From an uncultured Bacteroidales bacterium (GTDB taxonomy: Bacteria; Bacteroidota; Bacteroidia; Bacteroidales; VadinHA17): DNA of 64,000 nucleotides. Within the stretch, counting starts at the first letter, position 1. Every line of letters begins with the position of its first letter. The stretch covers positions 465,086-529,085 of the forward strand of contig CAWGRY010000006.1 in assembly GCA_963825165.1 (NCBI GenBank), in the 5' to 3' direction. The position numbers were made by a program, and so were the translations under genes. Of the stretch, positions 27,636-42,159 are shown piece after piece. Below the pieces are notes generated by a model. The model was not told the origin of the DNA. It did not search any database and saw only the letters and a program-made list of their open reading frames with translations.

Positions 27636-28172
27636 AGGTTCATCACTTCGTGACGTCTGCGGTCATGCATGCGGTCCGGGATTCAAGTCCGTAAACTCAT
27701 CAGGGAGTACAAAAAGATAAAGATTATCTCCAGCTTTTTGTGCTGATTAATATCAAGCTTCCTGGTCATATCATAAGGAGACAGTTCTGTTCCTGATCAA
27801 AACTTACTGATAATATTACCTGACATGTGAAAAATATTTGTTTTCTTTAAAACAAAGGCTTATTTTTATTATGTGAAAGTTTGATGTACTAACAACTGTC
27901 GGGTTAGTATTGATTTTTAGTTTGATTGGTTGTGGGGCAATTAGCTTTTGGTTTGATTATTACATAACCATATATAATGAAACAAACCTGTCTGTCTGGT
28001 TCTGTATTGTTTTTATTCCTAATCTTATTACACCCATCCTATGTATTTGTATGTCAATTATTTGATAATATTATTGTTGTGATACACCGCGGAGTGTATA
28101 ATCCTGCCAATATAGAGGAATATCCCCTTGGATTAATTAGATCCCAGAATATTAACCTAACACTTTTAAGAA

Positions 28173-28634
28173 ATGAATACTAAAAGCATTATTCTAACGG
28201 GCTTGCTTTTATTCATCCTCTTGAAACTCTCAGGTCAGAGTATCGGGTTCACTTATGATGCCAACGGCAACAGGGTGAGCAGAGAGCTCATTGTAGAACA
28301 GCTTAAATCAGCCACAGCTATAGCCGGGAGTACTTCAAAGAATGATGTTGTTGACCCCCTGCAAAAACCGGAAGACATAGCAGAAACTCCTGAGGTTCAT
28401 GTTTATCCTAATCCGAATAAGGGTATCCTTAAAGTAGAAATAAAAAATTTATCTCCGGGCTCATCAAGGGAAATGAGGATATATGATTTGGCCGGAAGGC
28501 AGGTGCTTGTAAAGGAGAATTTCGAAAACTATTCAGAATTTGATTTGAACAGTTTAAAGGATGGGATCTATATTCTCCGGATTAAGATAGATGATAAGGC
28601 GCTTGATTGGAAAGTTATTAAAAGCAATTTCTGA
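28173..28634 (+). CDS. small secreted protein: single YD/Rhs-type repeat plus T9SS type-A C-terminal sorting domain
   Basis: Signal peptide ending LSG|Q, FTYDANGNRVSR, VYPNP...IYDLAGR...GIYILRI...KVIK. Confidence 0.85.
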   Translation: MNTKSIILTGLLLFILLKLSGQSIGFTYDANGNRVSRELIVEQLKSATAIAGSTSKNDVVDPLQKPEDIAETPEVHVYPNPNKGILKVEIKNLSPGSSREMRIYDLAGRQVLVKENFENYSEFDLNSLKDGIYILRIKIDDKALDWKVIKSNF

Positions 28635-28706
28635 TTGGCTCTGTGCAAGGCTTTGATTAGTCGATCTGCAATACAACCCGATAACTAACCTACATAGGAA
28701 CCAGAA

Positions 28707-31700
28707 ATGAAAAAAGAATTATTATTGAAGATAATTTTGGTGGCAGGCATCCTGGTTATTTCTAAAGACCTTGACGCGCAAATTAGGCCATTGGGAGTTG
28801 ATTGCCCGGTAAACTCCATTTCTCCTACAGTACTAAATGCCGGAAGTGGAGCCGGTCAGGTTGCCCCGACTGTGACGGTATCAACACTTAATAGCTGTAC
28901 GACATATACTATCAGCTGCAGCTACAGCTGGATTTCATATTCAAGAAACGGATTGAATGTTACAATATCTGTGCAGGCTAATACAGGGCCGGCGAGAACG
29001 GGATATGTAAATATTGGGACTCAAACTCTTACAGTTAACCAGGCTTGCGGGAATCTACCGGTTGCGCCAACAAAACTTAATGTTAACCATAATAATTTTT
29101 GTGCAGGCGCGTATGGGACAATTACAATCTCAGCCGTAGGTGGTTCAGGGACAGCCATGCGCTGGTTTACCGGCTCATGCGGAGGCACCCAGATCGGATA
29201 TACAGATGTTGGGTCGCTGGAAATCAGCGCACCGACGGTAACAACAACATATTATGCCCGCTGGGAGACCAGCTGTGGTAATTCGGCATGCAAATCTGTC
29301 ACTGTGACAGTTAAACCTGTGCCAACAGCAAGTGCGGGCAATGACGGTCCGAAATGTGCCGGAAGTGACCTTCACTTTACAAGCTCAGGAGGCAGCACCT
29401 ATGCATGGACCGGCCCAAACGGCTTTACCAGCAGTTTACAAAACCCTGCCATAGCCGCGGCCACTCCAGCGGCCTCAGGCACCTATTATGTAATTGTAAC
29501 GAGCAGCCAGGGATGCAGCTCCGTTGCTTCAACAATTGCAACTGTCAACAGCCTTCCGTCAGCGACTGCATCAAGCAACAGTCCGGTGTGTAACAGAGGG
29601 ACCATTGCTCTTTCAGGATCCGGTGGTACAAGCTACCTGTGGACCGGTCCGAAAGGCTTCAGCAGCAATCAGCAAAATCCTGATATTCTCAATGCTACAT
29701 CAGATATGTCGGGTGCGTATAACCTCACCGTGACAAATGCAAATGGCTGTTCGGCCCAGACGTCCGTTCCGGTAACAGTTTACGATGCTCTTACAGCATC
29801 ACTTAGCGTTGGCACGTATGCCGTAGTTTATAATACATCGCCGGGTAATCTCACGGTCACCGCCAGCGGAGCAACGGGCACATATACTTATCTCTGGTAC
29901 AGGAATGGCATTTCAACGGGTGTCACTTCGCAGACTTATAACCCCGGTTCTCTCACATCAAACAGTACGTTTTATTGTGCCGTTACAAGCGGTTCATGTG
30001 GCACAATCAATACAGAGACAATTGAAATCACTGTTCTTGATACTCCCGAGACAAGGACAATAAATCTTTCATTACCTGTCGGGACGACTAACGGAAGCCT
30101 CAACGTTGATGCCACGGGCGCGGCAGTTTATTCTATCCCGTTGGAGTTACTTCCGGGGGTAAACGGGCTTGCGCCGGGTCTTTCTGTCAATTACTCAAGC
30201 AATGGAGGAGCAGGTACGGTTGGATATGGATGGAATATAGGTGGCATATCCACAATAAGAAGAGGGCCTCAGACTTTCTTCAGCGATAGTACTTCGAGAG
30301 GCGTTGAGCTTGATGCTAATGATCGTTTTTATCTTAATGGTCAAAGACTTGTGAATACAACCGGCAGCTATGGCGATGCCGGGGCAATATATCAGACTGA
30401 AAATGATATTTTCACCCGTGTTACTCCAAAAAATACCGACTCTGGCGGACCCGGGTGGTTCCGCACAGAAACCAAATCAGGCCTGATATGCGAATATGGC
30501 AACACAACTGACTCAAAGCAGAAGGTGGGCAGCTATCCCCAGACTTTCCAGTGGTATGTCTCGAAGATTTCGGATTTGCATGGCAATCAGATAAACTTCG
30601 GATACACTCAGGATCATAACATGGTCTATCCTGATACAATAACTTACGGTCCGAATCTCATAACTTTTATTTATAAAAGCAGGGAAGATAAAGATGCATG
30701 GTTCATAAAAGGAGCCAAAACAGAGCAATGGCTTTTACTTGATAGTATTGTTGTAAAGTATAATTCAAATGTAGTAAAAGCCTGCAAGTTCATTTATTCA
30801 ACACAGGGTTCATCATATAACACTTATTCAGTTCTGAGTGAAGTGGTGGAGTATGGTACGGGTTCTGAGAGATTAAATTCAACGGTTTTTTCATACCAGG
30901 TGCCTGAGAACATCTATTTTCCGCACACACGACCCACACATGAACACGACTACATAAAAAACAGTAAGCAGTTTTCAGGAGATTTTAACGGTGACGGAAA
31001 ATCAGATTTACTTTGCCTGCCTGATACTTCCATGGGAGCAGCATGGACAGGTGTCAAAGTATTTTTCAGCAATGGCGACGGCACCTTCACCTCTTCCTTC
31101 AGCAGTAGCATTCCGGTTGAGCTGCCCCTGTTAAGAGATCTTCGGACCATTGATCTGAATGCAGATGGTATCGACGATTTGCTTTATGAGCGCTATTCAG
31201 AAGAAACAAATTACGCATCATATTTATTTTACTCTTTATGCGACGGGAATTCATTTTCTGAGCCCACTCTGATTGAATCTTATCAGTACCAGGGTTATCT
31301 GGGCATTCCGTATAATTTTCCGAACAGGTCACCAAAAAACCGGTTGGAAAGTGATTATAACGGTGATGGCGTAAATGATATATTTACTTATGACGAAGTC
31401 GGTAATTGGAAGATAAGGTCCCTTGCTAATTCCTCAGGTGAGCTGACCAATTCAATAAATACAATAGCATTTGGAACATTAAGCACTTTATCGGGAACCG
31501 ACAAGATAAAGGTGGGTGATTTTAACGGCGACGGGAAAACAGATATCTGGCATATTGATACCGATGTAAAGATTTATACACTGTCAGGTTCTGTACTCAC
31601 ATCGTTATATAATTCAAGCCTTTTCTCAAGGACAAGTTATTACGATCTGGGTGATTACAACGGAGACGGGAAGACAGATGTGTTCATATATGGCGATAAC

Positions 31701-34700
31701 GTAACACCTGACTGGGATAACTGGCAGATCCAGTTATCAACCGGCGCCGGATTTGAGCAGCACAGCGTACCACAGAAAAAAGAAAACCTCTTTGCCGACG
31801 AGACGATTTCGGGAGATTTCAACGGGGACGGAGCAACAGACTTCATCGGAGTAACCTCAGTTGATGATACGTTATTACCCCCGGTCTTTTATATTTCAAA
31901 GAATAATGGCACTGATTTTTATACTCATAACCCCATAAATTATTCAAGCCCCAACGACAGTTCGGCATTTGGCGATTTTAACGGTGACGGACGCTATGAC
32001 TACCTGTGCACTCGTATCAATGGTTCAGATACAGTTTATTCAATTTTTGAGCAGCCCGGGAAAAACCTGGTTTTAATGGAAGAGATAAGTAACGGTCTGG
32101 GAACCTTTACAAAGCTATCTTATGAAAAGCTGTCACAAGGTTCAGCAGAAGTATATAACCGGGGCTCGGGTGCCGTCTTTCCTGTAACTGATTACCAGGG
32201 ACCATGGTCCGTGGTAAGTTCTGTAGAATCTGAAAACGGGAAGGGGACAATGAATAAGCAGATCTATCATTATAAGGGCGCCAAAATCCATCTTCAGGGC
32301 AAAGGGTTTCTGGGCTATTCTGCCACCAGTGTAAGAGATGCTGTTTCAGGCATGCTGCGGGAAACCATAGCAGAGTATGATCTGGCATATTATTACCCCA
32401 TGATAATTAAGTCTTATTCAAGGCTAACCGGAACAACTGATTCAATTGAAGTAGTTAAAAACACATGGTCTCACCTGGTTCTCGGTGGAGCGGGTTACCC
32501 GGAGCGGGTATTTCCTTACATTCAATGTTCGGTAAGCACCAACAAGCTCACCGGAGGAGCTGTCACCGGGACTTTTCAATATGATAATTATGGAAATCCT
32601 ACCTCAACAGTCAGGAGTTATTCCGGCGGCCGGACTGAGACAACTACAAATTTTTTTAACAATACAATTGCCTCAGACAAATGGTTGCTTGGCAGACCCA
32701 CCTCAACCTCAATCCTGTACACATCGGCAGGTAATCCCAATATAACCAGGTCAGCAACAAGGATATTTAAACCGGATAACAACAAACTTGAGAGTGAAAC
32801 CTGGCACTCCGGTACCAGCCAAGAGATAACAAAAGGCTTTATCTATAATCCCAACGGTTCACTAAAAAAAGAAACAGCAACCGCCGGTGGCGTGTCACGC
32901 TCGGTCAGCTACACATATAAGGCCGATAGTATTAGAATCCATTCAACTACCGATCAGCTCGCCAACACCGCGATCAATAACTATGATGTTTACGGAAGGT
33001 TGTATACCCAGCAGGACTACCTTGGAAATACTCTGACATATCTCTATGACAGTTTTGGCAGGCAGACCTCGGTGGCATCATCAGACGGAAGTCAGAGCGC
33101 CACTGTTTATTCATGGGAAGACCCTGCATCTGTTCCGCTGCTGGCACGATATTCAGTGGCTGATACTGCAAATGACGGCTCACATTCGAAAACATGGTAT
33201 GATAAGCTGGGAAGGGTAATCAGATCAGATGTCAAAGGATTTGATGGCACCATGATCTGTACTTCCACCTCTTATAACCTTAAAGGCCAGGTCGGGAGTG
33301 TTTCTGATCCGTACTTTTCAATCGAAGATCCACAGCTGAATGTATACTCTTATGACAGTTACGGCCGGCAGACTGCACTGGCGAGACCTTCCGGAAGAAA
33401 TTCCGCGTGGTCATACAGCAATAATACCGTGACAGAGATAACGGCCGGAAAATCGTTTTCTAAAACAATTGCTTCTGATGGTAATGTATCTTCAGTCACC
33501 GATCCTGGCGGAATGATTACGTATTCATATTATGCCGATGGGAAGGTGAAAAGTATTGTTGCTCCGGGCAGTATTACCACAAGCATGCAGTATGATATTG
33601 CCGGCAACCAGACAATCCTTGATGATCCGAGTGCTGACACCATTGCTTATACATATAACGGGTTTGGAGAACTTATATCACAGGTTAATCCCGGCTCAGT
33701 GACCACTTCCATAAGCTACCTGTCTGACGGAAGGATTGATCGAAAAACAACCCCTGAAGGTGTTACTTACTACAGGTATAATTCAAATAAACAACTTTCA
33801 AATATCAAATCCCCGTCAAATGTCAGCCGGTCGTTGGGATATGACTCAAAGGGCAGGGTGACAGCGGTGACAGATTCTTTGCCGGGTTCCAATCCGTTTG
33901 TTACTTCCATTACCTATGACAGCAAAGGAAGAAAGAGCACTGTCACACACCCGTCAGCCGTCACAGAGACTTACGGGTATAACCAGAACGGTTATTTATC
34001 TTCAGTAACGGCAGGTGGATCAGTGCGCTGGACAACAACTGGCATTAATGCACGGGGACAGCAGACCACGGGCACTTATGGCAGCAACCTCAATACAACA
34101 ATGGAATTTGACACTTATGGGTTCCCGACTTCAATTGTGACAGGTACAGTTCAGAATTATTCCTTTAACTTTAATCCCGTAACCGGTAACCTTGCCTGGA
34201 GACAGAATAACAAGTACACAGGATTGAGAGAGGATTTTCAATATGATGACCTTGACAGGCTCACAGATGTACTCGTGAACAGTGTCACCACCCTATCCAT
34301 GTCATATGATGGAAATACCGGAGGGATTACAGGTAAGAGTGACGCCGGGACATTCACATATGATGCATTTGATAAGCCCTATGCCATACAAAGTATTGAT
34401 CCCACAACCGGACTTGTACCTGACAGCACACAGACAACAGAGTACACTTCTTTCAATAAGGTGGAGAGTATTACAGAAAACGGGTATGAAGCCAACTTCA
34501 TTTACGGTTCAGACGATCAAAGGTCGAGGATGATCGTAAAACAGAATGGAAACACCATCCTTACCCGCTGGTACCCCACGGGCAGTTACATGAAAGAGAC
34601 CGCCGGGAGTGTCACAAAGGAATATACCTTCATCGGGGGAGATGCGTACTCAGCCCCTGCTGTAGCCATAAAACAGAACGGATCGACATCATATTATTCC

Positions 34701-35936
34701 ATTCTGAGAGATCATCTCGGGAGCATAACACATGTTGTAAATTCATCAGGTTTGGTTGTGGCTGAGTATAGTTATGATGCCTGGGGAAGAATGAGAAATC
34801 CTGCGACATGGACCAATTATGAACCCGGTTCAGAGCCGGCGCTGATGGTTGCAGGAAGAGGCTTTACCGGTCACGAGCACCTTCCCTGGATCAACACGAT
34901 CAATATGAACGGTAGACTTTATGATCCACTGACCGGGATGTTTCTGAGTCCGGATAATTATATTCAATCAGTGGAGAATTCGCAGAACTTTAACAGGTAT
35001 TCATACGGTTTGAACAATCCGTTGAAATATAGTGATCTTTCCGGGCAGCTTCTTGAACCTCTCCCCAACCCGGCAGATGCAGGTTATCCATACAATCCCG
35101 AGGCTGCCGCCTGGCTGGCTAATTACTATATGAATTGGGATTATAATTATGGTGGTGGCGGAGGTGGCGGTGGCGTAAACACTGTAACCGGATTTTGGAA
35201 TAGTCACGCTTCAACTTCAGGCATATTGGGTTACAGGTGGGAAGGAGAAAATAGAATTGACAACGCAACAGGAAAAATAGTTGGTGTCAGACAAAATGGA
35301 CATTATGAGAAAGTATTCTCACAAAATAAAGGTACTATATATGGTAATAGATTGAACAACAAAAAAGATCCGAATCTAATAGATGAGGTTATCATAGAAT
35401 ATGAATGGGTTTGGGATGTTCCCCAAGGAGGAGGGAATTATAGTTGGGGTCGCTCAAATGATGCAATAAGCCTTGCCGGACTTGCTTGGGGTACGCTTGA
35501 AAACAGTTTGTACAATGGTAACTATTGGCTCGGTATAAAAAATTTGAAGTACAATTCCATCTCATGGGGTGGAAATGGTGCTACAGGGGCAAGATCTCTT
35601 GCCCAAAGTATGGCTAAACCAGCTAAAATTCTGGGTCGATATGCATTCTATGCAAATGCCGCATATAGTTTTTATGGCGTTGGTAATGGGCTTTATACGC
35701 AAAATTATTCCAAAGCAATGTTTTCAGGTTTATCAGGAATATATAGCGCTATAGCAACTTATGGAGGTATACCTGGTTTGGTAATAGCGGGTCCAATGGT
35801 CTTGATAGATGCAACAATCGGGTTGGATAATTATTTATTGAATGCGGTTAATACTGAAATAGATCGAGGAAATAGAATTAGTAACGGGGATTACTCAATG
35901 TGGGCTTACCCTAAATTTGGGCAAGGTATGCGTTAA
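28707..35936 (+). CDS. Rhs/YD polymorphic toxin: signal peptide, BACON-like and Ig-like repeats, SpvB/TcaC-like region, FG-GAP repeats, YD shell, Rhs core, C-terminal toxin tip
   Basis: LDA|Q signal, WTGPNGF Ig repeats, G.A.YSIPL..PG..GLAP.LS.NYSS..GYGW, GDFNGDG repeats, RGFTGHEHL..NMNGRLYDP..FLSPD..NPLKYSDLSG. Confidence 0.93.
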   Translation: MKKELLLKIILVAGILVISKDLDAQIRPLGVDCPVNSISPTVLNAGSGAGQVAPTVTVSTLNSCTTYTISCSYSWISYSRNGLNVTISVQANTGPARTGYVNIGTQTLTVNQACGNLPVAPTKLNVNHNNFCAGAYGTITISAVGGSGTAMRWFTGSCGGTQIGYTDVGSLEISAPTVTTTYYARWETSCGNSACKSVTVTVKPVPTASAGNDGPKCAGSDLHFTSSGGSTYAWTGPNGFTSSLQNPAIAAATPAASGTYYVIVTSSQGCSSVASTIATVNSLPSATASSNSPVCNRGTIALSGSGGTSYLWTGPKGFSSNQQNPDILNATSDMSGAYNLTVTNANGCSAQTSVPVTVYDALTASLSVGTYAVVYNTSPGNLTVTASGATGTYTYLWYRNGISTGVTSQTYNPGSLTSNSTFYCAVTSGSCGTINTETIEITVLDTPETRTINLSLPVGTTNGSLNVDATGAAVYSIPLELLPGVNGLAPGLSVNYSSNGGAGTVGYGWNIGGISTIRRGPQTFFSDSTSRGVELDANDRFYLNGQRLVNTTGSYGDAGAIYQTENDIFTRVTPKNTDSGGPGWFRTETKSGLICEYGNTTDSKQKVGSYPQTFQWYVSKISDLHGNQINFGYTQDHNMVYPDTITYGPNLITFIYKSREDKDAWFIKGAKTEQWLLLDSIVVKYNSNVVKACKFIYSTQGSSYNTYSVLSEVVEYGTGSERLNSTVFSYQVPENIYFPHTRPTHEHDYIKNSKQFSGDFNGDGKSDLLCLPDTSMGAAWTGVKVFFSNGDGTFTSSFSSSIPVELPLLRDLRTIDLNADGIDDLLYERYSEETNYASYLFYSLCDGNSFSEPTLIESYQYQGYLGIPYNFPNRSPKNRLESDYNGDGVNDIFTYDEVGNWKIRSLANSSGELTNSINTIAFGTLSTLSGTDKIKVGDFNGDGKTDIWHIDTDVKIYTLSGSVLTSLYNSSLFSRTSYYDLGDYNGDGKTDVFIYGDNVTPDWDNWQIQLSTGAGFEQHSVPQKKENLFADETISGDFNGDGATDFIGVTSVDDTLLPPVFYISKNNGTDFYTHNPINYSSPNDSSAFGDFNGDGRYDYLCTRINGSDTVYSIFEQPGKNLVLMEEISNGLGTFTKLSYEKLSQGSAEVYNRGSGAVFPVTDYQGPWSVVSSVESENGKGTMNKQIYHYKGAKIHLQGKGFLGYSATSVRDAVSGMLRETIAEYDLAYYYPMIIKSYSRLTGTTDSIEVVKNTWSHLVLGGAGYPERVFPYIQCSVSTNKLTGGAVTGTFQYDNYGNPTSTVRSYSGGRTETTTNFFNNTIASDKWLLGRPTSTSILYTSAGNPNITRSATRIFKPDNNKLESETWHSGTSQEITKGFIYNPNGSLKKETATAGGVSRSVSYTYKADSIRIHSTTDQLANTAINNYDVYGRLYTQQDYLGNTLTYLYDSFGRQTSVASSDGSQSATVYSWEDPASVPLLARYSVADTANDGSHSKTWYDKLGRVIRSDVKGFDGTMICTSTSYNLKGQVGSVSDPYFSIEDPQLNVYSYDSYGRQTALARPSGRNSAWSYSNNTVTEITAGKSFSKTIASDGNVSSVTDPGGMITYSYYADGKVKSIVAPGSITTSMQYDIAGNQTILDDPSADTIAYTYNGFGELISQVNPGSVTTSISYLSDGRIDRKTTPEGVTYYRYNSNKQLSNIKSPSNVSRSLGYDSKGRVTAVTDSLPGSNPFVTSITYDSKGRKSTVTHPSAVTETYGYNQNGYLSSVTAGGSVRWTTTGINARGQQTTGTYGSNLNTTMEFDTYGFPTSIVTGTVQNYSFNFNPVTGNLAWRQNNKYTGLREDFQYDDLDRLTDVLVNSVTTLSMSYDGNTGGITGKSDAGTFTYDAFDKPYAIQSIDPTTGLVPDSTQTTEYTSFNKVESITENGYEANFIYGSDDQRSRMIVKQNGNTILTRWYPTGSYMKETAGSVTKEYTFIGGDAYSAPAVAIKQNGSTSYYSILRDHLGSITHVVNSSGLVVAEYSYDAWGRMRNPATWTNYEPGSEPALMVAGRGFTGHEHLPWINTINMNGRLYDPLTGMFLSPDNYIQSVENSQNFNRYSYGLNNPLKYSDLSGQLLEPLPNPADAGYPYNPEAAAWLANYYMNWDYNYGGGGGGGGVNTVTGFWNSHASTSGILGYRWEGENRIDNATGKIVGVRQNGHYEKVFSQNKGTIYGNRLNNKKDPNLIDEVIIEYEWVWDVPQGGGNYSWGRSNDAISLAGLAWGTLENSLYNGNYWLGIKNLKYNSISWGGNGATGARSLAQSMAKPAKILGRYAFYANAAYSFYGVGNGLYTQNYSKAMFSGLSGIYSAIATYGGIPGLVIAGPMVLIDATIGLDNYLLNAVNTEIDRGNRISNGDYSMWAYPKFGQGMR

Positions 35937-35947
35937 AAAATACAACT

Positions 35948-36355
35948 ATGTGGAAGTCTTATAAATATTTATATTACAAACTTTTCAAATTTTTTGTAAA
36001 AGTTAATGGAAAGAATGATATTCCTGAATATACGGCAATGTTTGCAGTTGCGACCTTATTATTCTGCAACTTGTTTGCTATACTAAATACGATAAATGTT
36101 TTTTCTCCATTTTGGGATTATCCCGAAATTTCAAGAGGGAGTTTTTTTATTTATCTTATCCCATATTCTTTGATATTTTATTTTGCTTTTGTCTTTAATA
36201 GTAGATATAAAAGGATAATTAAAGAATTTAAGAATGAGAGCGAAGACCAAAGAAAAAGAGGGAAGAGAAATGTCATTATATACATTGTAATTTCATTGCT
36301 ATTGGTAATTATTTCATTTTCTCTCATTGTAATGAAAAACGAAGGTTTAATATAA
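35948..36355 (+). CDS. putative membrane immunity protein for Rhs tip 1
   Basis: Immediately downstream of the toxin, AT-rich, three hydrophobic helices. Confidence 0.75.
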   Translation: MWKSYKYLYYKLFKFFVKVNGKNDIPEYTAMFAVATLLFCNLFAILNTINVFSPFWDYPEISRGSFFIYLIPYSLIFYFAFVFNSRYKRIIKEFKNESEDQRKRGKRNVIIYIVISLLLVIISFSLIVMKNEGLI

Positions 36356-36403
36356 ATCCTCGGCTGGTCGAAGTTTGCAACTTCGACCTGTGTAAGTAAA
36401 GCG

Positions 36404-36433
36404 AAACCCGCCTCTTCACTGGGGCGGGTTTTT
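36404..36433. terminator. intrinsic terminator between immunity gene and convergent HTH gene
   Basis: AAACCCGCC-TCTTCACTGG-GGCGGGTTT followed by T-run. Confidence 0.75.
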
Positions 36434-36439
36434 GTTGTT

Positions 36440-36803
36440 TTATAGGGTGGCTACGTTCTTCTGGAAAAAGCCTTTGAATTTTTTTAGTTAGAAACGTATC
36501 CACCATTTTAAAGACCATTCCTTTTTCATCCGGTTCAAGTTCCTGAATCATTTTGACCTGTTCCATCAGGGTTTTATCTTCCACGGTTATTTCCTGCGGT
36601 ACAGCACTATCAAAGTTTACAATCTGATCGATGGGCATCCCGAAATACCTGGCGACATTATTAAGAGCATCTACTGAAATCTCTCTCTGGCCGCTTTCTA
36701 TCTTGGAATAGCTGGAACGATGCATATTTATCAGTTCGGCAATTTGTTGCTGGTTCAGGTTGTTATCTTCTCTTATTTTCTTAATGTTTTGTCCGACGCT
36801 CAT
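36440..36803 (-). pseudogene. XRE-family HTH regulator with frameshift in an A7 run near its 3' end
   Basis: MSVGQNIKKIRE..NQQQIAELI..SYSKIESGQRE; after FLTKK the natural-looking end FKGFFQKNVATL* is in another frame, directly before the terminator. Confidence 0.7.
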
Positions 36804-36984
36804 AAATAGTCGATCCTTAAAAACGCCCATATAGTTGATAACTAATGATATAAGTTAATAATAGAATTTGACAGTTTGCTAGCTTTTCGGTAGATTCGTC
36901 CAAAACCTTGTCCGCCAGCTAGCGGAATAGGCAAAACAGACAAGTATCCGCAATTGAATGTCTTCTGTATTCCGTCGGTGATGG

Positions 36985-39906
36985 AAGGCTGACAGCATAA
37001 GAATCCATACAGCCACTGACCAGCTTGCACATACCACCATCAATAATTATGATGCTTATGGAAGGTTATATACAAGCCAGGATTACCTGGGCAACACTAT
37101 GACCCTCCTCTATGACAGCTTCGGCAGGCAGACCTCGGTGGCATCATCAGACGGAAGTCAGAGCACAATTGTTTATTCATGGGCAGATCCTGCATCTGAT
37201 CCTCTTCTGGCACGATATTCAGTGGCTGATACAGCAAATGACGGATCAGTGACGAAAACCTGGTATGATAAGCTGGGAAGGGTAATCAGATCAGATGTCA
37301 AAGGATTTGATGGTACCATGATATGTACCTCCACCTCTTATAATCTTAAAGGTCAGGTTGAAAGTGTTTCTGATCCGTACTTTTCAACCGGAGCTCCACA
37401 ACTGAATCTTTATTCTTATGACAGTTACGGCCGGCAGACTGCACTTACAACACCTTCCGGAAGAAACTCCGCGTGGTCATACAGCAATAATACCGTGACA
37501 GAGACAACGGCCGGAAAATCGTTTTCAAGAACAGTTGGTCCTGATGGTAATGTATCTTCAGCCACGGACCCTGGCGGAACCATAACTTATTCATACTTTG
37601 CCGACGGGAAGGTAAAAGATATTGTGGCACCCGGAAGCATTACAACAAGCATGCAATATGATATTGCCGGTAATCAGACAAGCCTTGCTGATCCGAGTGC
37701 GGGTACAATCTCTTATACATATAACGGGTTTGGAGAATTAACATCACAGGTTAATCCCGGCTCAGTGACCACTTCCATAAGCTACCTGTCAGACGGAAGG
37801 ATTGATCAAAAAACAACCCCTGAAGGTGTTACTTGCTACAGGTATAATTCAAATAAACAACTTGCCAACATTAAATCCCCGTCAAATGTCAGCCGGTCGT
37901 TGGGATATGACTCAAAAGGCAGGGTGACAGCGGTGACAGATACTTTGCCGGGTTCCAATCCGTTCGTTACAACCATTACCTATGACAGCAAAGGAAGAAA
38001 GAGCACTGTCACACACCCGTCAGCCGTTACAGAGACCTACGGGTATAACCAGAACGGTTATTTATCTTCTGTATCAGCAGGAGGATCGGTGCGCTGGACA
38101 ACAACGGGCATTAATGCCCGGGGACAGCTGACCACGGGCACTTATGGCAGCAACCTCAATACATCAATGGGCTTTGACTCATATGGATTCCCGACTTCAA
38201 TTGTGACAGGCACAATTCAGAATTATTCCTTTAACTTTAATCCCGTAACCGGTAACCTTGCCTGGAGACAGAATAACAAGTACACAGGATTGAGAGAGGA
38301 TTTTCAAAATGATGACCTTGACAGGCTGACAGATGTGATGAAGAACAGCGTCACCACTCTTACCATGTCTTATGATGGAAATACAGGAGGGCTAGCAGGC
38401 AAGAGTGATGCCGGGACATTTACATACGATCCCTTTGACAAACCGTATGCTTTAAAAAATATTGATCCCGCAACCGGACTTACACCTGACAGCACACAGA
38501 CAATAGGATATACTTCTTTCAATAAAGTAGAGAGTATTTCAGAAAACGGGTATGAGGCTGACTTCATTTACGGTTCAGACGATCAAAGGTCGAGGATGAT
38601 TGTGAAACAGAATGGAAATACCATTCTTACCCGCTGGTACCCCACGGGCAGTTACCTGAAAGAAACATCCGGAGGAGTCACGAAGGAGTACACCTTCATC
38701 GGGGGAGATGCATATACTGCACCTGTTGCAGCCATAACACAGGGCGGGACAACAACGTACTACAACATTCTCCGTGATCACCTTGGCAGCATCACGCATA
38801 TAGTCAGTTCATCAGGATCGGTTGTGGCCGAGTACAGTTATGATGCCTGGGGAAGGATGAGAAACCCATCGACATGGGTCAATTACGAACCCGGCTCGGA
38901 GCCTGCGCTGACGGTTGCAGGCAGAGGCTTTACGGGTCACGAGCACCTGCCATGGTTCAACATGATTAACATGAACGGGAGGTTGTATGATCCTTTGGTT
39001 GGCATGTTTCTGAGTCCGGATAATTATATTCAGGATCCAGGCTATACACAAAGCTACAACAGGTATAGTTATTGCATAAATAATCCACTTATTTTTACTG
39101 ATCCTGATGGGGAACAGACAGAGGAATGCAATAAAGAAAGTCTTTTCCATAAGCTTTTTGAGAAGGTGGGCTATTGGATTTATATGTGGGACCATTTTGG
39201 CGCCTCAGGTAATAGTGCCCCTCAGTCAGAACCGGATTTATTTGGATATTATTTCCTTTATCAAAATGGTATTTCCGTTGGTGGAGGAGAGGTGTCCGGT
39301 GGAGGAGGAATTACTTCTGGTGGAGGAGGAAATTCAAATTCAAGTCAATCTATTGTACCGGTTAAAGAGTTTAAAACTGACTATCCCCAAGGAGGTCGTA
39401 AAATGCCATTGGGAGAGGGAAGACCAACACTGTGGATTAAGGAGGGTCCAACTAATAGTAACAACTATTATGACGGATACTACCAATTGTTTATCGTAAT
39501 CTACGGTACCGAGTATGAAGAATATAATTGGACTCAAAGCAGAATTTGGACATCCAAAAATCCTTCCATGAATGATAAATGGCCAACAATTGAGGCTGTG
39601 TGTAGAGAAAACAATGGATTTTATTATTTCCGTAGTTGGGCAAAACAATTGATGAAATTTTATAAAGCAAGATTCGATGGAGATATGTATTTTGAGGATA
39701 GTCCAGATGCAAATGTTTCATTTGAAGCACAGTTGACTTTACTAGGCCGAAAGGGCAGCCGATGGGAAGCTATCCAGTCATTTTCATGGGGCTATGAATT
39801 CGTTGATGGGAAAGCCATTGGGGATAATCTTATAAAAACTATTGATTTATGGCCTGAACAACGTGAATGGGTGAACACAGCTCTTATTAAAGGTCCTATT
39901 TTTTAA
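36985..39906 (+). CDS. orphan, 5'-truncated Rhs module with alternative toxin tip (ORF caller start 37099)
   Basis: Collinear with main Rhs 32919-35045 at constant offset 4066; begins right after an in-frame TGA with no signal peptide; NPLIFTDPDG followed by an unrelated tip. Confidence 0.9.
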   Translation, partial: KADSIRIHTATDQLAHTTINNYDAYGRLYTSQDYLGNTMTLLYDSFGRQTSVASSDGSQSTIVYSWADPASDPLLARYSVADTANDGSVTKTWYDKLGRVIRSDVKGFDGTMICTSTSYNLKGQVESVSDPYFSTGAPQLNLYSYDSYGRQTALTTPSGRNSAWSYSNNTVTETTAGKSFSRTVGPDGNVSSATDPGGTITYSYFADGKVKDIVAPGSITTSMQYDIAGNQTSLADPSAGTISYTYNGFGELTSQVNPGSVTTSISYLSDGRIDQKTTPEGVTCYRYNSNKQLANIKSPSNVSRSLGYDSKGRVTAVTDTLPGSNPFVTTITYDSKGRKSTVTHPSAVTETYGYNQNGYLSSVSAGGSVRWTTTGINARGQLTTGTYGSNLNTSMGFDSYGFPTSIVTGTIQNYSFNFNPVTGNLAWRQNNKYTGLREDFQNDDLDRLTDVMKNSVTTLTMSYDGNTGGLAGKSDAGTFTYDPFDKPYALKNIDPATGLTPDSTQTIGYTSFNKVESISENGYEADFIYGSDDQRSRMIVKQNGNTILTRWYPTGSYLKETSGGVTKEYTFIGGDAYTAPVAAITQGGTTTYYNILRDHLGSITHIVSSSGSVVAEYSYDAWGRMRNPSTWVNYEPGSEPALTVAGRGFTGHEHLPWFNMINMNGRLYDPLVGMFLSPDNYIQDPGYTQSYNRYSYCINNPLIFTDPDGEQTEECNKESLFHKLFEKVGYWIYMWDHFGASGNSAPQSEPDLFGYYFLYQNGISVGGGEVSGGGGITSGGGGNSNSSQSIVPVKEFKTDYPQGGRKMPLGEGRPTLWIKEGPTNSNNYYDGYYQLFIVIYGTEYEEYNWTQSRIWTSKNPSMNDKWPTIEAVCRENNGFYYFRSWAKQLMKFYKARFDGDMYFEDSPDANVSFEAQLTLLGRKGSRWEAIQSFSWGYEFVDGKAIGDNLIKTIDLWPEQREWVNTALIKGPIF

Positions 39907-39924
39907 GAATTTAATACTAAAAAC

Positions 39925-40455
39925 ATGAGACTAGTTAAAATATTTGCAGTCATTGTCTTTTTTACTATTGCGTGCAAGAGTACAATAGGTTTTAATAAAA
40001 TAGAACAGCATCTATCATTACAAGTCATAAATAAAGGCACATATGGAGTTTCGCAATGTGATAGTGCTGGTTATATTCTTCTGGACTTAAGGCTGATGAA
40101 TAAAACAGATTCTGTCTGTGAGTTTATTGCTAAAAGTTGTACTACTATCGGTAATATCTTAACAGATAATGAACAGGTGGAATTCTGCCCAATATACTGT
40201 TCGTCTAACTCCATAATCGGTATTCAAATAGATCCTGGCCAAGCTTTTACAGTTCCAGTCATATTGAAATTTTATAATAATATTTCAGACATTGATTCTG
40301 TCAGATTTGGGATTGTTTTATTTCCACCGGAATTATTACAACACATGGATTTTAATGAAGGGCTCAATTATTTGAAAATGAATCGAACTAACATAATCTG
40401 GAGTGATCCTATAAAGTTATATGCACTGGAAGGTAAACCATATGAAGTTAGATAA
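39925..40455 (+). CDS. putative lipoprotein immunity protein for orphan tip 2
   Basis: Lipobox-like FTIAC, AT-rich, directly after the orphan toxin. Confidence 0.7.
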   Translation: MRLVKIFAVIVFFTIACKSTIGFNKIEQHLSLQVINKGTYGVSQCDSAGYILLDLRLMNKTDSVCEFIAKSCTTIGNILTDNEQVEFCPIYCSSNSIIGIQIDPGQAFTVPVILKFYNNISDIDSVRFGIVLFPPELLQHMDFNEGLNYLKMNRTNIIWSDPIKLYALEGKPYEVR

Positions 40456-40709
40456 TAGATACTTTTGTGGGTGTAATTAATTTTTTGTAAACGGTTGTGA
40501 AGTGACTTGGGTGACCAACCGGACTGGAACTGGCATTCAAGTTTGATGACCGGTTGGCTAAACGAAATAGTTTATTCTTTATCTAAACTGCTGTAATATG
40601 AATGACAATGAGTTATTTGAGATTCCGCAAAAATGTCCTGAAAAATCAATACTTGGGAAGGGAGAATTGATTCGGCTCAGCGGTTATATAGGTAGTGCAT
40701 TGACCTAAA

Positions 40710-41222
40710 AGGATAACAGATGTTTTAAAGGATAGTGAGTCCATTCTTGCCATGTCGTATGATGGAAATATAAACGGGATAACAGGTAAGAGTGATGCCG
40801 GGACATTTACATATGATGCATTTGAGAAGCCATACGCCATAAAGAGCATTGATCCCACAACCGGACTTACTCCTGACAGCACACAGACAACAGAGTACAC
40901 TTCTTTTAATAAAGTGGAGAGTATTTCAGAAAACGGGTATGAAGCTGACTTCATTTACGGTTCGGACGATCAAAGGTCGAGGATGATCGTGAAACAAAAT
41001 AGTAGCACCATACTTACCCGCTGGTACCCGACGGGCAGTTACCTGAAAGAAACCTCCGGTGGAGTCACGAAGGAGTACATCTTCATCGGGGGAGATGCAT
41101 ATACTGCAACGATTGCAGCCATAACACAGGGCGGTACAACAACGTACTACAACATTCTCCGTCGTCACCCCGGCAGCATCACCCATGTAGTCAGTTCGTC
41201 AGAACAATCAAGAAATAGATAA
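40710..41222 (+). pseudogene. Rhs fragment lacking core end and toxin tip
   Basis: RITDV...MSYDGN..GKSDAGTFTYD...ITHVVSSS matches the main Rhs; RDHLGS has decayed to RRHPGS; stops before the core. Confidence 0.85.
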
Positions 41223-41223
41223 A

Positions 41224-41577
41224 ATGAAATTGTTATATCGACTGTTGTTTTATAAAATGTACAAGCTCTATTCATTAATGAGGAATAGAGAAGAAGCCTC
41301 AGCAGCAGCAGGTCTAATGATCGGCTTTCTCATTGTATTCTGGATAATTCTCATTGTTGATTTATTTGATCTTAGGCGTTTTCTAAAAGGTATCTGGGTT
41401 GTCCCTGTATTTATAATAAGTATTATTGGGAATATTATGTTTATAATGAGAAAAGGTAATTATCAAAGGATTATTGATGAGATGTCTATGATAAAACTTC
41501 CTGTTAGATACCATGTTATGGTATACTTGTTACTATCATGGACATTCATTGGTATCGTATTAAACATATTAAATTGA
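41224..41577 (+). CDS. orphan membrane immunity protein, apparent paralog of 35948-36355
   Basis: YxxLxYK N-terminus, hydrophobic helices, YQRIIDE versus YKRIIKE. Confidence 0.65.
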   Translation: MKLLYRLLFYKMYKLYSLMRNREEASAAAGLMIGFLIVFWIILIVDLFDLRRFLKGIWVVPVFIISIIGNIMFIMRKGNYQRIIDEMSMIKLPVRYHVMVYLLLSWTFIGIVLNILN

Positions 41578-41658
41578 ATTTGAACTCTTCACAAGAATCG
41601 GGATTAATATCAGAAACCAATAATGAGGGTTAAAGATAGATAACGTTAAACTTAACTT

Positions 41659-42002
41659 CGTCAAATGTCAGCAGGTCGTTGGGATATGACTCAAAGGGCA
41701 GGGTGACAGAGGTAGAGACAAGATTATTAAATCAACAGGTAAAAAGAAATATCAGCAGGTTCCCTGAACGATACATGTTCCAACTGACTAAGGATGAATA
41801 CGATCGTCTAAGATCACAAAATGTGACCTTAAAGAGAGGCCAGCAAGTAAAATATTTACATTACGCTTTTACGGAACATGATAACCAGATAATGGTGATC
41901 TTTGAATATCTCAAACAGCTAGAAGCAGCCAGGCAGAAGGAATTAGACCAGAAGAACCGTAAGCGCATCGGTTTCAGGACACCGGGGAATCAGGAAGACT
42001 AA
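41659..42002 (+). pseudogene. chimera of a 51-bp Rhs piece and an internally deleted ORF6N-domain gene
   Basis: 41659-41709 matches 33814-33864 with 1 mismatch; then VETRLLNQQVKRNISRFPERYMFQLT..YAFTEH joined directly to a C-terminal ..RIGF tail. Confidence 0.75.
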
Positions 42003-42159
42003 TTCCACATGACAATCCAAAAAAGACCTTACCTCAGATGAACGTGTGGACGCTGGCGGACGGAACACGAGGGTGCTCTGTGTTACGGCTAATTCCTATT
42101 CAAAAATTTTCTTAACGGGAGAAATAATATTAAATTTATAATCCCTAAAAATCAATTAT

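What the first reader, a model, noticed from the sequence alone, without database searches (positions are those of the whole stretch)
28173..35936. Possible two-part T9SS delivery of a Tc-like Rhs toxin through a YD-strand/CTD adaptor
Seen: the 2409-aa Rhs has a Sec signal, but its C-terminus is the toxin tip, so it has no T9SS CTD. The 153-aa gene just upstream consists only of a signal peptide, one YD repeat (FTYDANGNRVSR), a linker and a type-A CTD. No VgrG, PAAR or TcA gene is in the window. Established: T9SS cargo needs a CTD, and SpvB + FG-GAP + YD form the TcB/TcC-type shell. Inference: the small protein may add its YD hairpin to the Rhs beta-shell and supply the secretion signal in trans, with BACON/Ig repeats as the receptor-binding arm. 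I am not aware of this route being characterised.
Basis: partly seen in the sequence, partly recalled or inferred. Interest (0 to 1): 0.8.

Follow-up and report, generated by a model that had tools for sequence, protein, structure and literature searches.

The report
Rhs toxin with T9SS-tagged partner
A giant shell-type bacterial toxin that lacks an export tag is encoded next to a tiny protein made of one piece of shell plus the export tag; this pairing recurs across the Bacteroidota, which points to a new way of exporting or displaying such toxins, though binding and export are not shown.

Summary
The ORF at 28173-28634 encodes a 153-aa protein with four parts: signal peptide, one genuine YD repeat, a disordered linker and a T9SS type-A CTD. 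The ORF at 28707-35936 encodes a 2409-aa Rhs with a signal peptide and BACON/Ig arm. It continues with a TcB-like SpvB/propeller/shell (Foldseek top hits are TcB-TcC), an Rhs core and a 295-aa unassigned tip, and has no CTD.

The new result is that the pair is a conserved module.
- Starting from the small protein, 20 of 24 loci hold an Rhs shell gene. None of 56 CTD-only control loci does.
- Starting from the Rhs in 400 sampled Bacteroidota genomes, all 31 assessable Rhs loci carry a same-strand gene with a YD or YD-like motif. 27 of the 31 partners have a CTD.
- The host genome has SprA, PorV and PorU. TssC, VgrG and PAAR were not found.

Physical binding and T9SS-dependent export remain inference.

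Adjacency of rhs genes to type-A CTD genes was already noted for Apibacter (Steele & Moran 2021). My searches found no paper describing the YD hairpin or a mechanism. An earlier scan note on another genome (e1-4326891) proposed a similar CTD-neighbour carrier idea.

Verdict: a real, widespread, uncharacterised accessory system, classed as a new variant of a known kind.

The parts
28173..28634 (+). Gene for the 153-aa partner. Signal peptide at residues 1-22 (28173-28238). Single YD repeat hairpin at residues 23-48 (28239-28316). Disordered linker at residues 49-76 (28317-28400). T9SS type-A CTD at residues 77-153 (28401-28631).
28635..28706 (+). 72-nt spacer between the partner gene and the Rhs gene. 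No terminator-like hairpin was found in it.
   Evidence: a consensus scan only.
28707..30038 (+). Rhs residues 1-444: signal peptide at 1-25, then a BACON domain and Ig_7/PKD-like repeats (the surface arm). This arm is specific to this locus. Most homologues start about 25-100 aa before the SpvB domain.
   Evidence: (Ig repeats match the T9SS-secreted GhpA grappling hook, 9flp, E 1.7e-249).
30039..32864 (+). Rhs residues 445-1386: TcB-like SpvB N-domain, FG-GAP beta-propeller and the first turns of the YD shell.
   Evidence: Pfam SpvB and FG-GAP. AF2 model with pLDDT 86.2. The 13 best Foldseek hits are all TcB or TcB-TcC chains, with E 3e-34 to 7e-29 and TMq 0.58-0.70.
32865..35048 (+). Rhs residues 1387-2114: the rest of the YD/RHS shell, ending in the Rhs-associated core (residues 2023-2114).
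   Evidence: TIGR03696, 45.5 bits against 32.5; T6SS Rhs structures.
35049..35936 (+). Rhs residues 2115-2409 plus the stop codon: the polymorphic toxin tip. It belongs to no known family, is glycine-rich (15%), and has a hydrophobic stretch at residues 2342-2378.
   Evidence: (a lead only).
35948..36355 (+). 135-aa immunity-like membrane protein with three TM-like segments.
   Evidence: NF053699 (Bfi1 family), E 3.6e-16 and 59.3 bits, below the 100-bit cut-off. Hydropathy.
36324..36830 (-). 168-aa XRE-type HTH protein on the opposite strand, between the main cassette and the orphan cassette.
37099..39906 (+). Orphan Rhs C-terminal cassette (935 aa). It is 86% identical to Rhs residues 1443-2117 and then carries a different 264-aa tip.
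39925..40455 (+). 176-aa protein with a lipoprotein-like N-terminus and no family hit. From its position it is the putative immunity protein of the orphan tip.
   Evidence: The role is inferred from position only.

Best explanation
The locus is a polymorphic Rhs toxin island in a T9SS-bearing Bacteroidota genome where no T6SS markers were found. It holds a main toxin, an immunity gene and an orphan cassette.

The Rhs is a fused TcB-TcC-type cocoon. It is exported to the periplasm by Sec but has no T9SS tag of its own.

The small neighbouring protein is its dedicated accessory subunit. After signal-peptide cleavage, its N-terminus is a single YD repeat. An isolated YD repeat should only be stable as part of a larger beta-sheet. 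I infer that this hairpin docks by beta-strand augmentation onto the Rhs. A flexible linker joins it to a type-A CTD, which engages the T9SS (PorV/SprA, then PorU).

The complex would then be carried across the outer membrane, held on the cell surface through the partner, or both. That would present the toxin to neighbouring bacteria.

Shown here:
- The anatomy of both proteins.
- The TcB-like fold.
- The phylum-wide genetic linkage.
- T9SS genes present, T6SS markers not found.

Inferred: binding, the docking site, export in trans, surface anchoring and the target.

My odds are about 0.9 that the small protein is a dedicated functional partner of the Rhs, and about 0.45 for the full docking-plus-T9SS-coupling mechanism.
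For: 1. The family is real and constrained. 22 small homologues of 142-193 aa share the same four-part layout, with Y28, D29, G32, R34 and R37 invariant.

2. Forward linkage. Among the 80 loci fetched with the family alignment, 24 hold a YD+CTD protein.
- 20 of those 24 also hold an Rhs shell gene, usually starting within 100 nt downstream.
- The other 4 lie on short contigs or at contig ends.
- None of the 56 CTD-only loci holds an Rhs shell. Two of them have Ig-only hits.
-. Fisher p = 3e-15, uncorrected for relatedness.

3. Reverse linkage. A SpvB/FG-GAP query found 34 genes in 24 of 400 sampled Bacteroidota genomes.
- 3 were set aside: one fills its whole contig, and two are SpvB-only proteins.
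- All 31 remaining have a same-strand gene for a signal peptide plus a YD or YD-like motif.
- 18 lie directly upstream, 1 upstream behind an extra gene, and 12 downstream.
- 31 of 35 partner ORFs tested carry PF18962 at E <= 0.01, and 28 of them reach the cut-off.
- Three further Rhs loci, found through the partner, show the same pairing.

4. Specificity. A similar-sized signal-peptide/linker/CTD protein without the YD motif (G307) has no Rhs nearby.

5. The hairpin is a bona fide YD repeat by its flanking residues.

6. Secretion systems.
- The host genome has SprA, PorV and PorU.
- All 25 Rhs-positive genomes have SprA, against 287 of 376 others.
- TssC was found in 0 of 25 Rhs-positive genomes. 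The model does find TssC in 10 of 401 sampled genomes.

7. Modular variants keep YD+CTD and add adhesin-like passengers: YadA head, beta-helix, lamin-tail and Ig_7 domains. This fits a surface-exposed partner.

8. The Rhs arm is built of BACON and Ig_7 domains, like the T9SS cargo GhpA.

9. The two genes are 72 nt apart with no predicted terminator between them.
Against: - No result here shows contact between the two proteins.
- 4 of 31 partners (L107, L122, L123, L130) have the YD or YD-like motif but no recognisable type-A CTD. The CTD is therefore not obligatory.
- In 12 of 31 loci the partner lies downstream of the toxin and immunity genes. Two motifs are degenerate (L124, L130).
- The co-occurrence with T9SS discriminates weakly. 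SprA is in 312 of 401 sampled genomes, and 87 of the 89 SprA-negative genomes belong to one family.
- None of the 10 large CTD proteins I checked is an Rhs shell. I therefore have no example of a shell travelling through T9SS in cis.
- From memory, not from a call: the SprA pore is about 70 A wide and TcB-TcC cocoons are about 100 A wide. A fully folded shell may not fit through it.
- The related genomes are not independent samples.
Confidence: 0.45

Rival explanations
1. Surface tether only. The partner is secreted alone by T9SS. Its CTD is cut off and the about 55-aa peptide is fixed to the cell surface. There its YD hairpin captures Rhs that crossed the outer membrane by another route, such as vesicles, lysis or an unknown exporter. 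The partner anchors the toxin but does not export it.
For: - The genetic linkage is the same as for the main model.
- The long disordered linker looks like a tether.
- PorU is present.
- This model avoids the size problem of passing a folded cocoon through SprA. That size problem is recalled, not tested here.
Against: - No alternative exporter for a Sec-delivered 2409-aa protein was identified.
- T6SS markers were not found.
- Attachment of cleaved cargo to surface lipopolysaccharide is known from Porphyromonas (recalled) and was not tested for this organism.
Confidence: 0.2
2. The two genes are functionally linked without direct strand complementation. The small protein is a co-regulated secreted accessory, such as a receptor-binding, decoy or signalling peptide. 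Its YD motif would be recognised by something other than the cognate Rhs shell, for example the target cell or the FG-GAP propeller.
For: - The linkage alone does not say what the hairpin binds.
- Variants carry adhesin-like passengers.
- Some loci add a third gene, tail-fibre-like, with a shared C-terminal EELTLY-type coil.
Against: - A lone YD repeat has no known independent fold or function.
- The repeat is invariant while the rest of the mature part is only a variable linker.
Confidence: 0.15
3. Periplasmic docking. The cocoon never leaves the producer. The partner's CTD docks the cocoon on the T9SS translocon, as TcA does for TcB-TcC. The cleaved, unfolded toxin tip is then threaded out through the T9SS pore.
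For: - The fold is TcB-like and includes the propeller that gates release in Tc toxins.
- No TcA-type gene was found (controls silent).
- This model would solve the size problem.
Against: - The BACON/Ig arm of this Rhs and the adhesin passengers of the partner variants are domain types of surface proteins. They would have no use in the periplasm.
- The idea is purely speculative.
Confidence: 0.08
4. Chance neighbour or decaying gene fragment with no function.
For: One partner copy (L119) is split into two ORFs.
Against: - Invariant residues across 22 homologues.
- 20 of 24 loci with an Rhs shell against 0 of 56 controls, and 31 of 31 in the reverse direction, across 13 families of Bacteroidota.
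Confidence: 0.02

Closest known systems
Apibacter rhs loci (Steele & Moran 2021, mSystems, PMC8125069; passages read)
   Same: Rhs proteins with SpvB/TcdB N-termini instead of PAAR. Most of these rhs genes lie adjacent to genes for T9SS type-A sorting-domain proteins. The authors suggest the Rhs are T9SS-associated.
   Different: The point is made in one paragraph for one genus. It does not mention the YD repeat in the neighbour, its conservation, its phylum-wide range or any mechanism.
TcB-TcC cocoon of Tc (ABC) toxins: TcdB2-TccC3 and YenB-YenC2 (PDB 6h6e, 4o9x, 4igl)
   Same: SpvB N-domain, inserted FG-GAP propeller and YD shell, Rhs core, and an encapsulated C-terminal toxin. The fold match has E 3e-34 and TMq up to 0.70.
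   Different: B and C are fused in one chain with a Sec signal peptide. No TcA-type gene was found (controls silent). The tip is of unknown family with a membrane immunity protein, which suggests an antibacterial role. The partner is a 153-aa T9SS cargo protein, not a translocation channel.
'TcdB/TcaC export' class of polymorphic toxins (Zhang et al. 2012, PMC3482391; passages read)
   Same: Signal peptide, SpvB domain, integrin-like propeller, RHS repeats and a variable toxin. The class is listed for Bacteroidetes.
   Different: In the passages I read, the export step across the outer membrane is left open and no CTD partner is described.
TANFOR polymorphic toxins of Bacteroidetes (Jana, Salomon & Bosis 2020, PMC7073777; passages read)
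   Same: Sec-dependent toxins without a CTD whose gene neighbourhoods are enriched in CTD/SprB cargo. The authors hypothesise T9SS export.
   Different: The delivery domain is TANFOR, not SpvB/Rhs. The neighbours are large SprB-repeat proteins. No shared structural element links neighbour and toxin.
T6SS Rhs effectors with PAAR/VgrG and Eag-type adaptors (e.g. PDB 7pq5, 7q97, 8qjb)
   Same: A YD shell, an Rhs core and a polymorphic tip, with immunity and orphan cassettes. A small dedicated accessory protein links the Rhs to its secretion machine.
   Different: No PAAR, VgrG or TssC was found in the genome. The fold match to these structures is far weaker than to TcB (TMq 0.14-0.17). The accessory carries a T9SS signal.

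Membership tests
T9SS type-A CTD cargo (small protein) | C-terminal domain matching TIGR04183 / PF18962 above the curated cut-off | tested here: met
   55.1 bits against 23, and 54 bits against 27. The region is modelled as a beta-sandwich with pLDDT about 90.
T9SS type-A CTD cargo (small protein) | N-terminal Sec signal peptide | tested here: met
   Hydrophobic residues 2-22, modelled as a helix at 3-20. Q22 is nearly invariant at the likely cleavage site. No dedicated predictor was run.
T9SS type-A CTD cargo (small protein) | Genome encodes the T9SS translocon, shuttle and sortase | tested here: met
   SprA 2634.7 bits, PorV 476.7 bits and PorU 1163.9 bits, all over their cut-offs.
T9SS type-A CTD cargo (small protein) | T9SS-dependent secretion and CTD removal | not testable with these tools
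   Needs mutants and proteomics.
Rhs / YD polymorphic toxin | RHS/YD repeats forming a shell, closed by an Rhs-associated core | tested here: met
   PF05593 E 4.5e-19. TIGR03696 45.5 bits against 32.5, at residues 2023-2114. PDB Rhs hits.
Rhs / YD polymorphic toxin | Variable C-terminal tip after the core, a cognate immunity gene and orphan cassettes | tested here: met
   The orphan is 86% identical up to the core and then diverges. A Bfi1-like membrane protein lies directly downstream (below the cut-off, so the immunity role is inferred).
Rhs / YD polymorphic toxin | Toxicity of the tip and protection by the immunity protein | not testable with these tools
   The tip has no family or PDB match.
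Tc toxin BC subcomplex (TcB-TcC) | SpvB N-domain, FG-GAP propeller and YD cocoon fold | tested here: met
   The top 13 Foldseek hits are all TcB or TcB-TcC chains. Pfam SpvB and FG-GAP.
Tc toxin BC subcomplex (TcB-TcC) | A TcA pentamer partner that binds the propeller | tested here: inconclusive
   PF03538 and PF18276 were not found in the genome. Neither rang in any control genome.
T6SS Rhs effector | PAAR or VgrG linkage and a T6SS in the genome | tested here: not met
   PF05488, PF05954 and PF05943 were not found in a 96.7% complete genome. TssC was found in 0 of 24 other genomes carrying the pair.
YD-hairpin/CTD partner family (defined here) | Signal peptide, one YD repeat ([FY]x[FY]xYDxxGNRxxR), a linker or passenger, and usually a type-A CTD, encoded on the same strand beside a SpvB/FG-GAP/Rhs gene | tested here: met

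The most novel reading that the evidence does not exclude
The small protein would be the first T9SS secretion signal found to act in trans. It is a roughly 55-aa mature peptide. Its single YD hairpin completes or extends the beta-sheet of a TcB-TcC-like cocoon. Its CTD takes the whole toxin through, or onto, the type IX machinery. The cut end is then fixed to the cell surface.

T9SS would thereby become a contact-dependent antibacterial weapon of Bacteroidota. The peptide would functionally replace TcA (in Tc toxins) or PAAR/VgrG (in T6SS Rhs).
Probability: 0.4. Interest if true: 0.85.

Novelty: new variant of a known kind. Interest (0 to 1): 0.68.

Why it matters
How Sec-dependent SpvB/Rhs toxins of Bacteroidota cross the outer membrane is an open question, and so is whether T9SS takes part in bacterial warfare. 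Both papers that raise it say so (PMC7073777, PMC8125069; passages read).

A conserved two-gene module makes the question directly testable. One partner is only 'one shell repeat plus the T9SS tag'. Culturable carriers exist: the Maribellus and Draconibacterium isolates.

If the hairpin docks as proposed, two things would follow.
- It would show that T9SS can take cargo that has no tag of its own.
- It would show a new way in which Rhs/Tc-type cocoons are coupled to a delivery machine.

It would also let unannotated 'T9SS type A sorting domain-containing' mini-proteins be named.

Tried and rejected
- Complex prediction on Rhs 445-1386 plus partner 23-76: no verdict. The score was 0.00 in both runs and the controls were not folded. 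It counts neither for nor against binding. Only the N-terminal 942 residues of the shell fitted under the size cap.
- hhalign of the partner alignment against the Rhs alignment: it aligned only the signal peptides and was uninformative. I replaced it with the PSSM test.
- The genome search with the partner alignment: swamped by CTD-only hits, with only 9 candidates scored per genome, so its tally (153 of 401) is not a family count. Among the 150 listed rows, 21 were full-length small ORFs. 20 of them lay in Rhs-positive genomes. The 21st (G307) lacks the YD motif.
- The look-up of sequencing runs: no RNA holder listed, so co-transcription could not be examined.
- The toxin tip and both immunity-like proteins against all fetched loci: no hits.
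- PDB sequence search of the tip: nothing below E 0.5.
- Protein atlas: the best named clusters are colicin-like pore formers at 0.84. That is below the tool's 0.9 mark, so it is a lead only.
- Ten large CTD proteins checked for a cis-tagged Rhs shell: none found.
- Literature searches for a described mechanism: none found.
- P. gingivalis cargo lists include a 405-423-aa 'RHS repeat protein', PG1798/PGN_1767 (PMC7712824 table). Its sequence was not examined here.
- The search of earlier findings by sequence and by long word list found nothing.
Full report
**1. What is in the window**

The finding's coordinates hold two co-oriented ORFs 72 nt apart: 28173-28634 (153 aa) and 28707-35936 (2409 aa).

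The small protein has four parts.
- A hydrophobic N-terminus at residues 2-22, modelled as a helix.
- The stretch SIGFTYDANGNRVSRELIV.
- A linker that AlphaFold2 leaves disordered (residues 47-68, pLDDT below 50).
- A type-A T9SS sorting domain, well above both curated cut-offs. PF18962 scores 54 bits against 27. TIGR04183 scores 55.1 bits against 23. It is modelled as a beta-sandwich with pLDDT about 90.

The large protein has these parts in order.
- A hydrophobic N-terminus.
- A BACON domain and four Ig_7 stretches.
- SpvB, FG-GAP repeats and RHS repeats.
- An Rhs-associated core at residues 2023-2114.
- A 295-aa tip with no family or PDB match.
- No CTD.

Downstream lie four further genes.
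- A 135-aa protein with three TM-like segments that resembles Bfi1-family immunity proteins (E 3.6e-16, below the cut-off).
- An opposite-strand HTH gene.
- An orphan Rhs C-terminal cassette. It is 86% identical to Rhs residues 1443-2117 and then carries a different tip.
- A lipoprotein-like 176-aa ORF.

The island sits between argR-argG-argH and a PPK2/carA block. Its G+C is lower than that of the flanks.

**2. Is the 'YD repeat' real?**

A word-indexed search of 5.8 billion protein clusters returned 22 small proteins (142-193 aa) with full-length similarity.
- In their alignment Y28, D29, G32, R34 and R37 are invariant. Q22, at the likely signal-peptidase site, is nearly so. The linker varies freely in length and sequence.
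- I built a position matrix from 261 YD..G windows of 32 Rhs shells and left the defining Y, D and G out of the score. The partners' flanks then score like genuine shell repeats. The median is 9.2 for partners, 10.3 for shell repeats and -6.0 for 48 chance YD..G sites in other proteins, whose maximum is 8.3.

The N-terminus of the mature protein is therefore one canonical YD repeat and little else.

**3. Is the pairing more than chance?**

Forward test. The family alignment was used to fetch 80 loci from one genome per species.
- In 24 loci the matched ORF is a YD+CTD protein.
- 20 of those 24 also hold a gene matching the Rhs shell, mostly a 2000-2400-aa ORF starting within 100 nt downstream.
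- The other 4 sit on contigs of 2.2-5.9 kb or at a contig end (L014, L020, L033, L057).
- The remaining 56 loci matched through the CTD only and serve as a control. None holds an Rhs shell. Two have hits to the Ig arm only.
- Fisher p = 3e-15, not corrected for relatedness.

Reverse test. The SpvB/FG-GAP segment (residues 442-1131) was searched in 400 sampled Bacteroidota genomes.
- It found 34 genes in 24 genomes, 18 genera and 12 families besides the window's own. At most two candidates per genome were scored.
- One gene fills its whole contig (L126). Two are 2442-aa proteins matching only the SpvB part (L128, L134).
- All 31 others have, on the same strand, a gene for a signal peptide followed by a YD or YD-like motif.
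- 18 are directly upstream (gap of 146 nt or less). 1 is upstream behind an extra gene. 12 are downstream of the toxin and immunity genes.
- Of 35 such ORFs scanned, 31 carry PF18962 at E <= 0.01, and 28 of them reach the cut-off. Four do not: L107, L122, L123 and L130. L130 ends instead in a '3-coathanger stack' domain.
- One partner (L119) is split into two ORFs. Two motifs are degenerate (L124, L130).
- Three more Rhs loci reached through the partner show the same pairing.
- A same-sized signal-peptide/linker/CTD protein without the YD motif (G307) has no Rhs nearby.

**4. Variants**

Larger partners keep YD plus CTD and add passenger domains.
- YadA-head repeats plus a tail-fibre-like coil (L018).
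- A beta-helix (L016).
- A lamin-tail domain (L133).
- Ig_7 (L125).
- A Cys-rich region (L121).

Several loci add a third gene whose product ends in a shared EELTLY-type coil (L015, L052, L039, L120, L138, L122). Most Rhs homologues lack the BACON/Ig arm of the window's protein. The conserved core of the system is therefore the YD hairpin, usually with a CTD, plus the SpvB/propeller/Rhs shell.

**5. Which machines are available?**

- The host genome (96.7% complete) has SprA, PorV and PorU above their cut-offs.
- TssC, PAAR and VgrG (Phage_GPD) were not found.
- Two TcA families were not found either. Those models rang in no control genome, so that blank is weak.
- Across the sample, all 25 Rhs-positive genomes have SprA, against 287 of 376 others. 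87 of the 89 SprA-negative genomes belong to one family, so this discriminates weakly.
- TssC was found in none of the 25. The model does detect TssC in 10 of 401 sampled genomes.

**6. What the Rhs is like**

An AlphaFold2 model of residues 445-1386 was built from 32 aligned sequences (pLDDT 86.2, pTM 0.85).
- It matches TcB or TcB-TcC chains of Photorhabdus and Yersinia Tc toxins in the 13 best Foldseek rows (E 3e-34 to 7e-29, TMq 0.58-0.70).
- T6SS Rhs structures follow far behind (E about 1e-14, TMq 0.14-0.17).
- By sequence, the shell hits only T6SS Rhs entries.
- The Ig arm hits GhpA, the T9SS-secreted grappling hook of Aureispira.

The protein is thus a fused TcB-TcC-type cocoon of the class that Zhang et al. 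2012 called 'TcdB/TcaC export' (passages read).

The tip is glycine-rich with one long hydrophobic stretch, and its neighbour is a polytopic membrane protein. Bfe1, whose immunity family gives the weak match, is reported to have C-terminal transmembrane regions (PMC13035841, section 16). A membrane-targeting antibacterial toxin is therefore a reasonable guess and no more than that.

**7. How it most likely works**

Shown:
- The anatomy of both proteins.
- The TcB-like fold.
- The tight genetic linkage.
- The available secretion system.

Inferred:
- A single YD repeat cannot be expected to fold alone, so the hairpin most simply pairs with the beta-sheet of the Rhs encoded beside it.
- The CTD would then couple the complex to T9SS for export, surface retention or both.

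I put about 0.9 on 'dedicated functional partner' and about 0.45 on the full mechanism.

Points against:
- No contact is shown.
- Four partners lack a CTD.
- I found no cis-tagged Rhs shell.
- From memory only, a folded cocoon may be wider than the SprA pore.

The rivals are a tether-only role, a periplasmic docking role, and a linked accessory that binds something else.

**8. What is known**

- Steele & Moran 2021 noted that most Apibacter rhs genes have SpvB/TcdB N-termini and lie next to type-A sorting-domain genes. They proposed T9SS association (passages read).
- Jana et al. 2020 made the parallel argument for TANFOR toxins (passages read).
- Seven full-text searches found no description of the YD hairpin, of a trans-acting CTD or of any experiment.
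I did not test that note.

**9. Verdict**

I class it as a new variant of a known kind: an Rhs/Tc-type polymorphic toxin with a T9SS-tagged YD-hairpin accessory. It is interesting mainly because it makes T9SS-dependent toxin delivery directly testable.

Noticed in passing
L015:10901-12523, L052:10549-13005, L039:818-2125, L120:14015-15373(-), L138:8956-9948, L122:13229-14863; fused form L018:5307-6902: Some partner/Rhs loci carry a third gene of 330-818 aa. Its N-terminal part varies (SprB repeats, CUB-like, Laminin_G_3) and it ends in a shared coil of the type '...KIEELTLY.I..K.E...LK'. In L018 the same coil is fused in front of the YD+CTD module. It may be a tail-fibre-like targeting subunit.
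   Followed up: partly
L006:8106-12989; L117:9516-15051: Partner genes are duplicated together with orphan Rhs-CT and immunity cassettes. The repeated unit is Rhs-CT, immunity, partner. Cassette displacement therefore seems to carry the partner along.
   Followed up: no
L128:6001-13329 and L134:6197-13525 (G035, G323): Two 2442-aa proteins match only the SpvB part of the query. Each is preceded by an ORF of about 2000 aa, and neither has a YD+CTD partner. This is a different, unexamined SpvB-containing architecture in Bacteroidota.
   Followed up: no
window 28782-30038: The Ig_7 repeats of the Rhs arm match the 5898-aa grappling-hook protein GhpA of Aureispira (9flp) in 19 stretches, E 1.7e-249. 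This domain type is otherwise seen in T9SS surface filaments.
   Followed up: partly
window 27636-42159: The whole toxin island (G+C 0.375-0.45 against 0.47-0.52 in the flanks) lies between argH and PPK2/carA. It splits what look like arginine and carbamoyl-phosphate genes. An ORF6N-domain ORF (41679-42002) sits at its right edge, and the two small ORFs at 40752-41577 have no family.
   Followed up: partly
L130:7368-7973(-), and N-termini of several Rhs homologues (e.g. L015, L018, L039): A 'PGF...GS.F.A' motif occurs in two places. It ends one CTD-less partner, where NCBIfam calls it a 3-coathanger stack domain (60.4 bits). By eye, it also appears near the N-terminus of many Rhs homologues.
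   Followed up: no
literature (PMC7712824, cargo table): The list of Porphyromonas gingivalis CTD cargo includes a 405-423-aa 'RHS repeat protein' (PG1798/PGN_1767). It might be an experimentally secreted relative of the larger partner variants. Its sequence was not examined.
   Followed up: no
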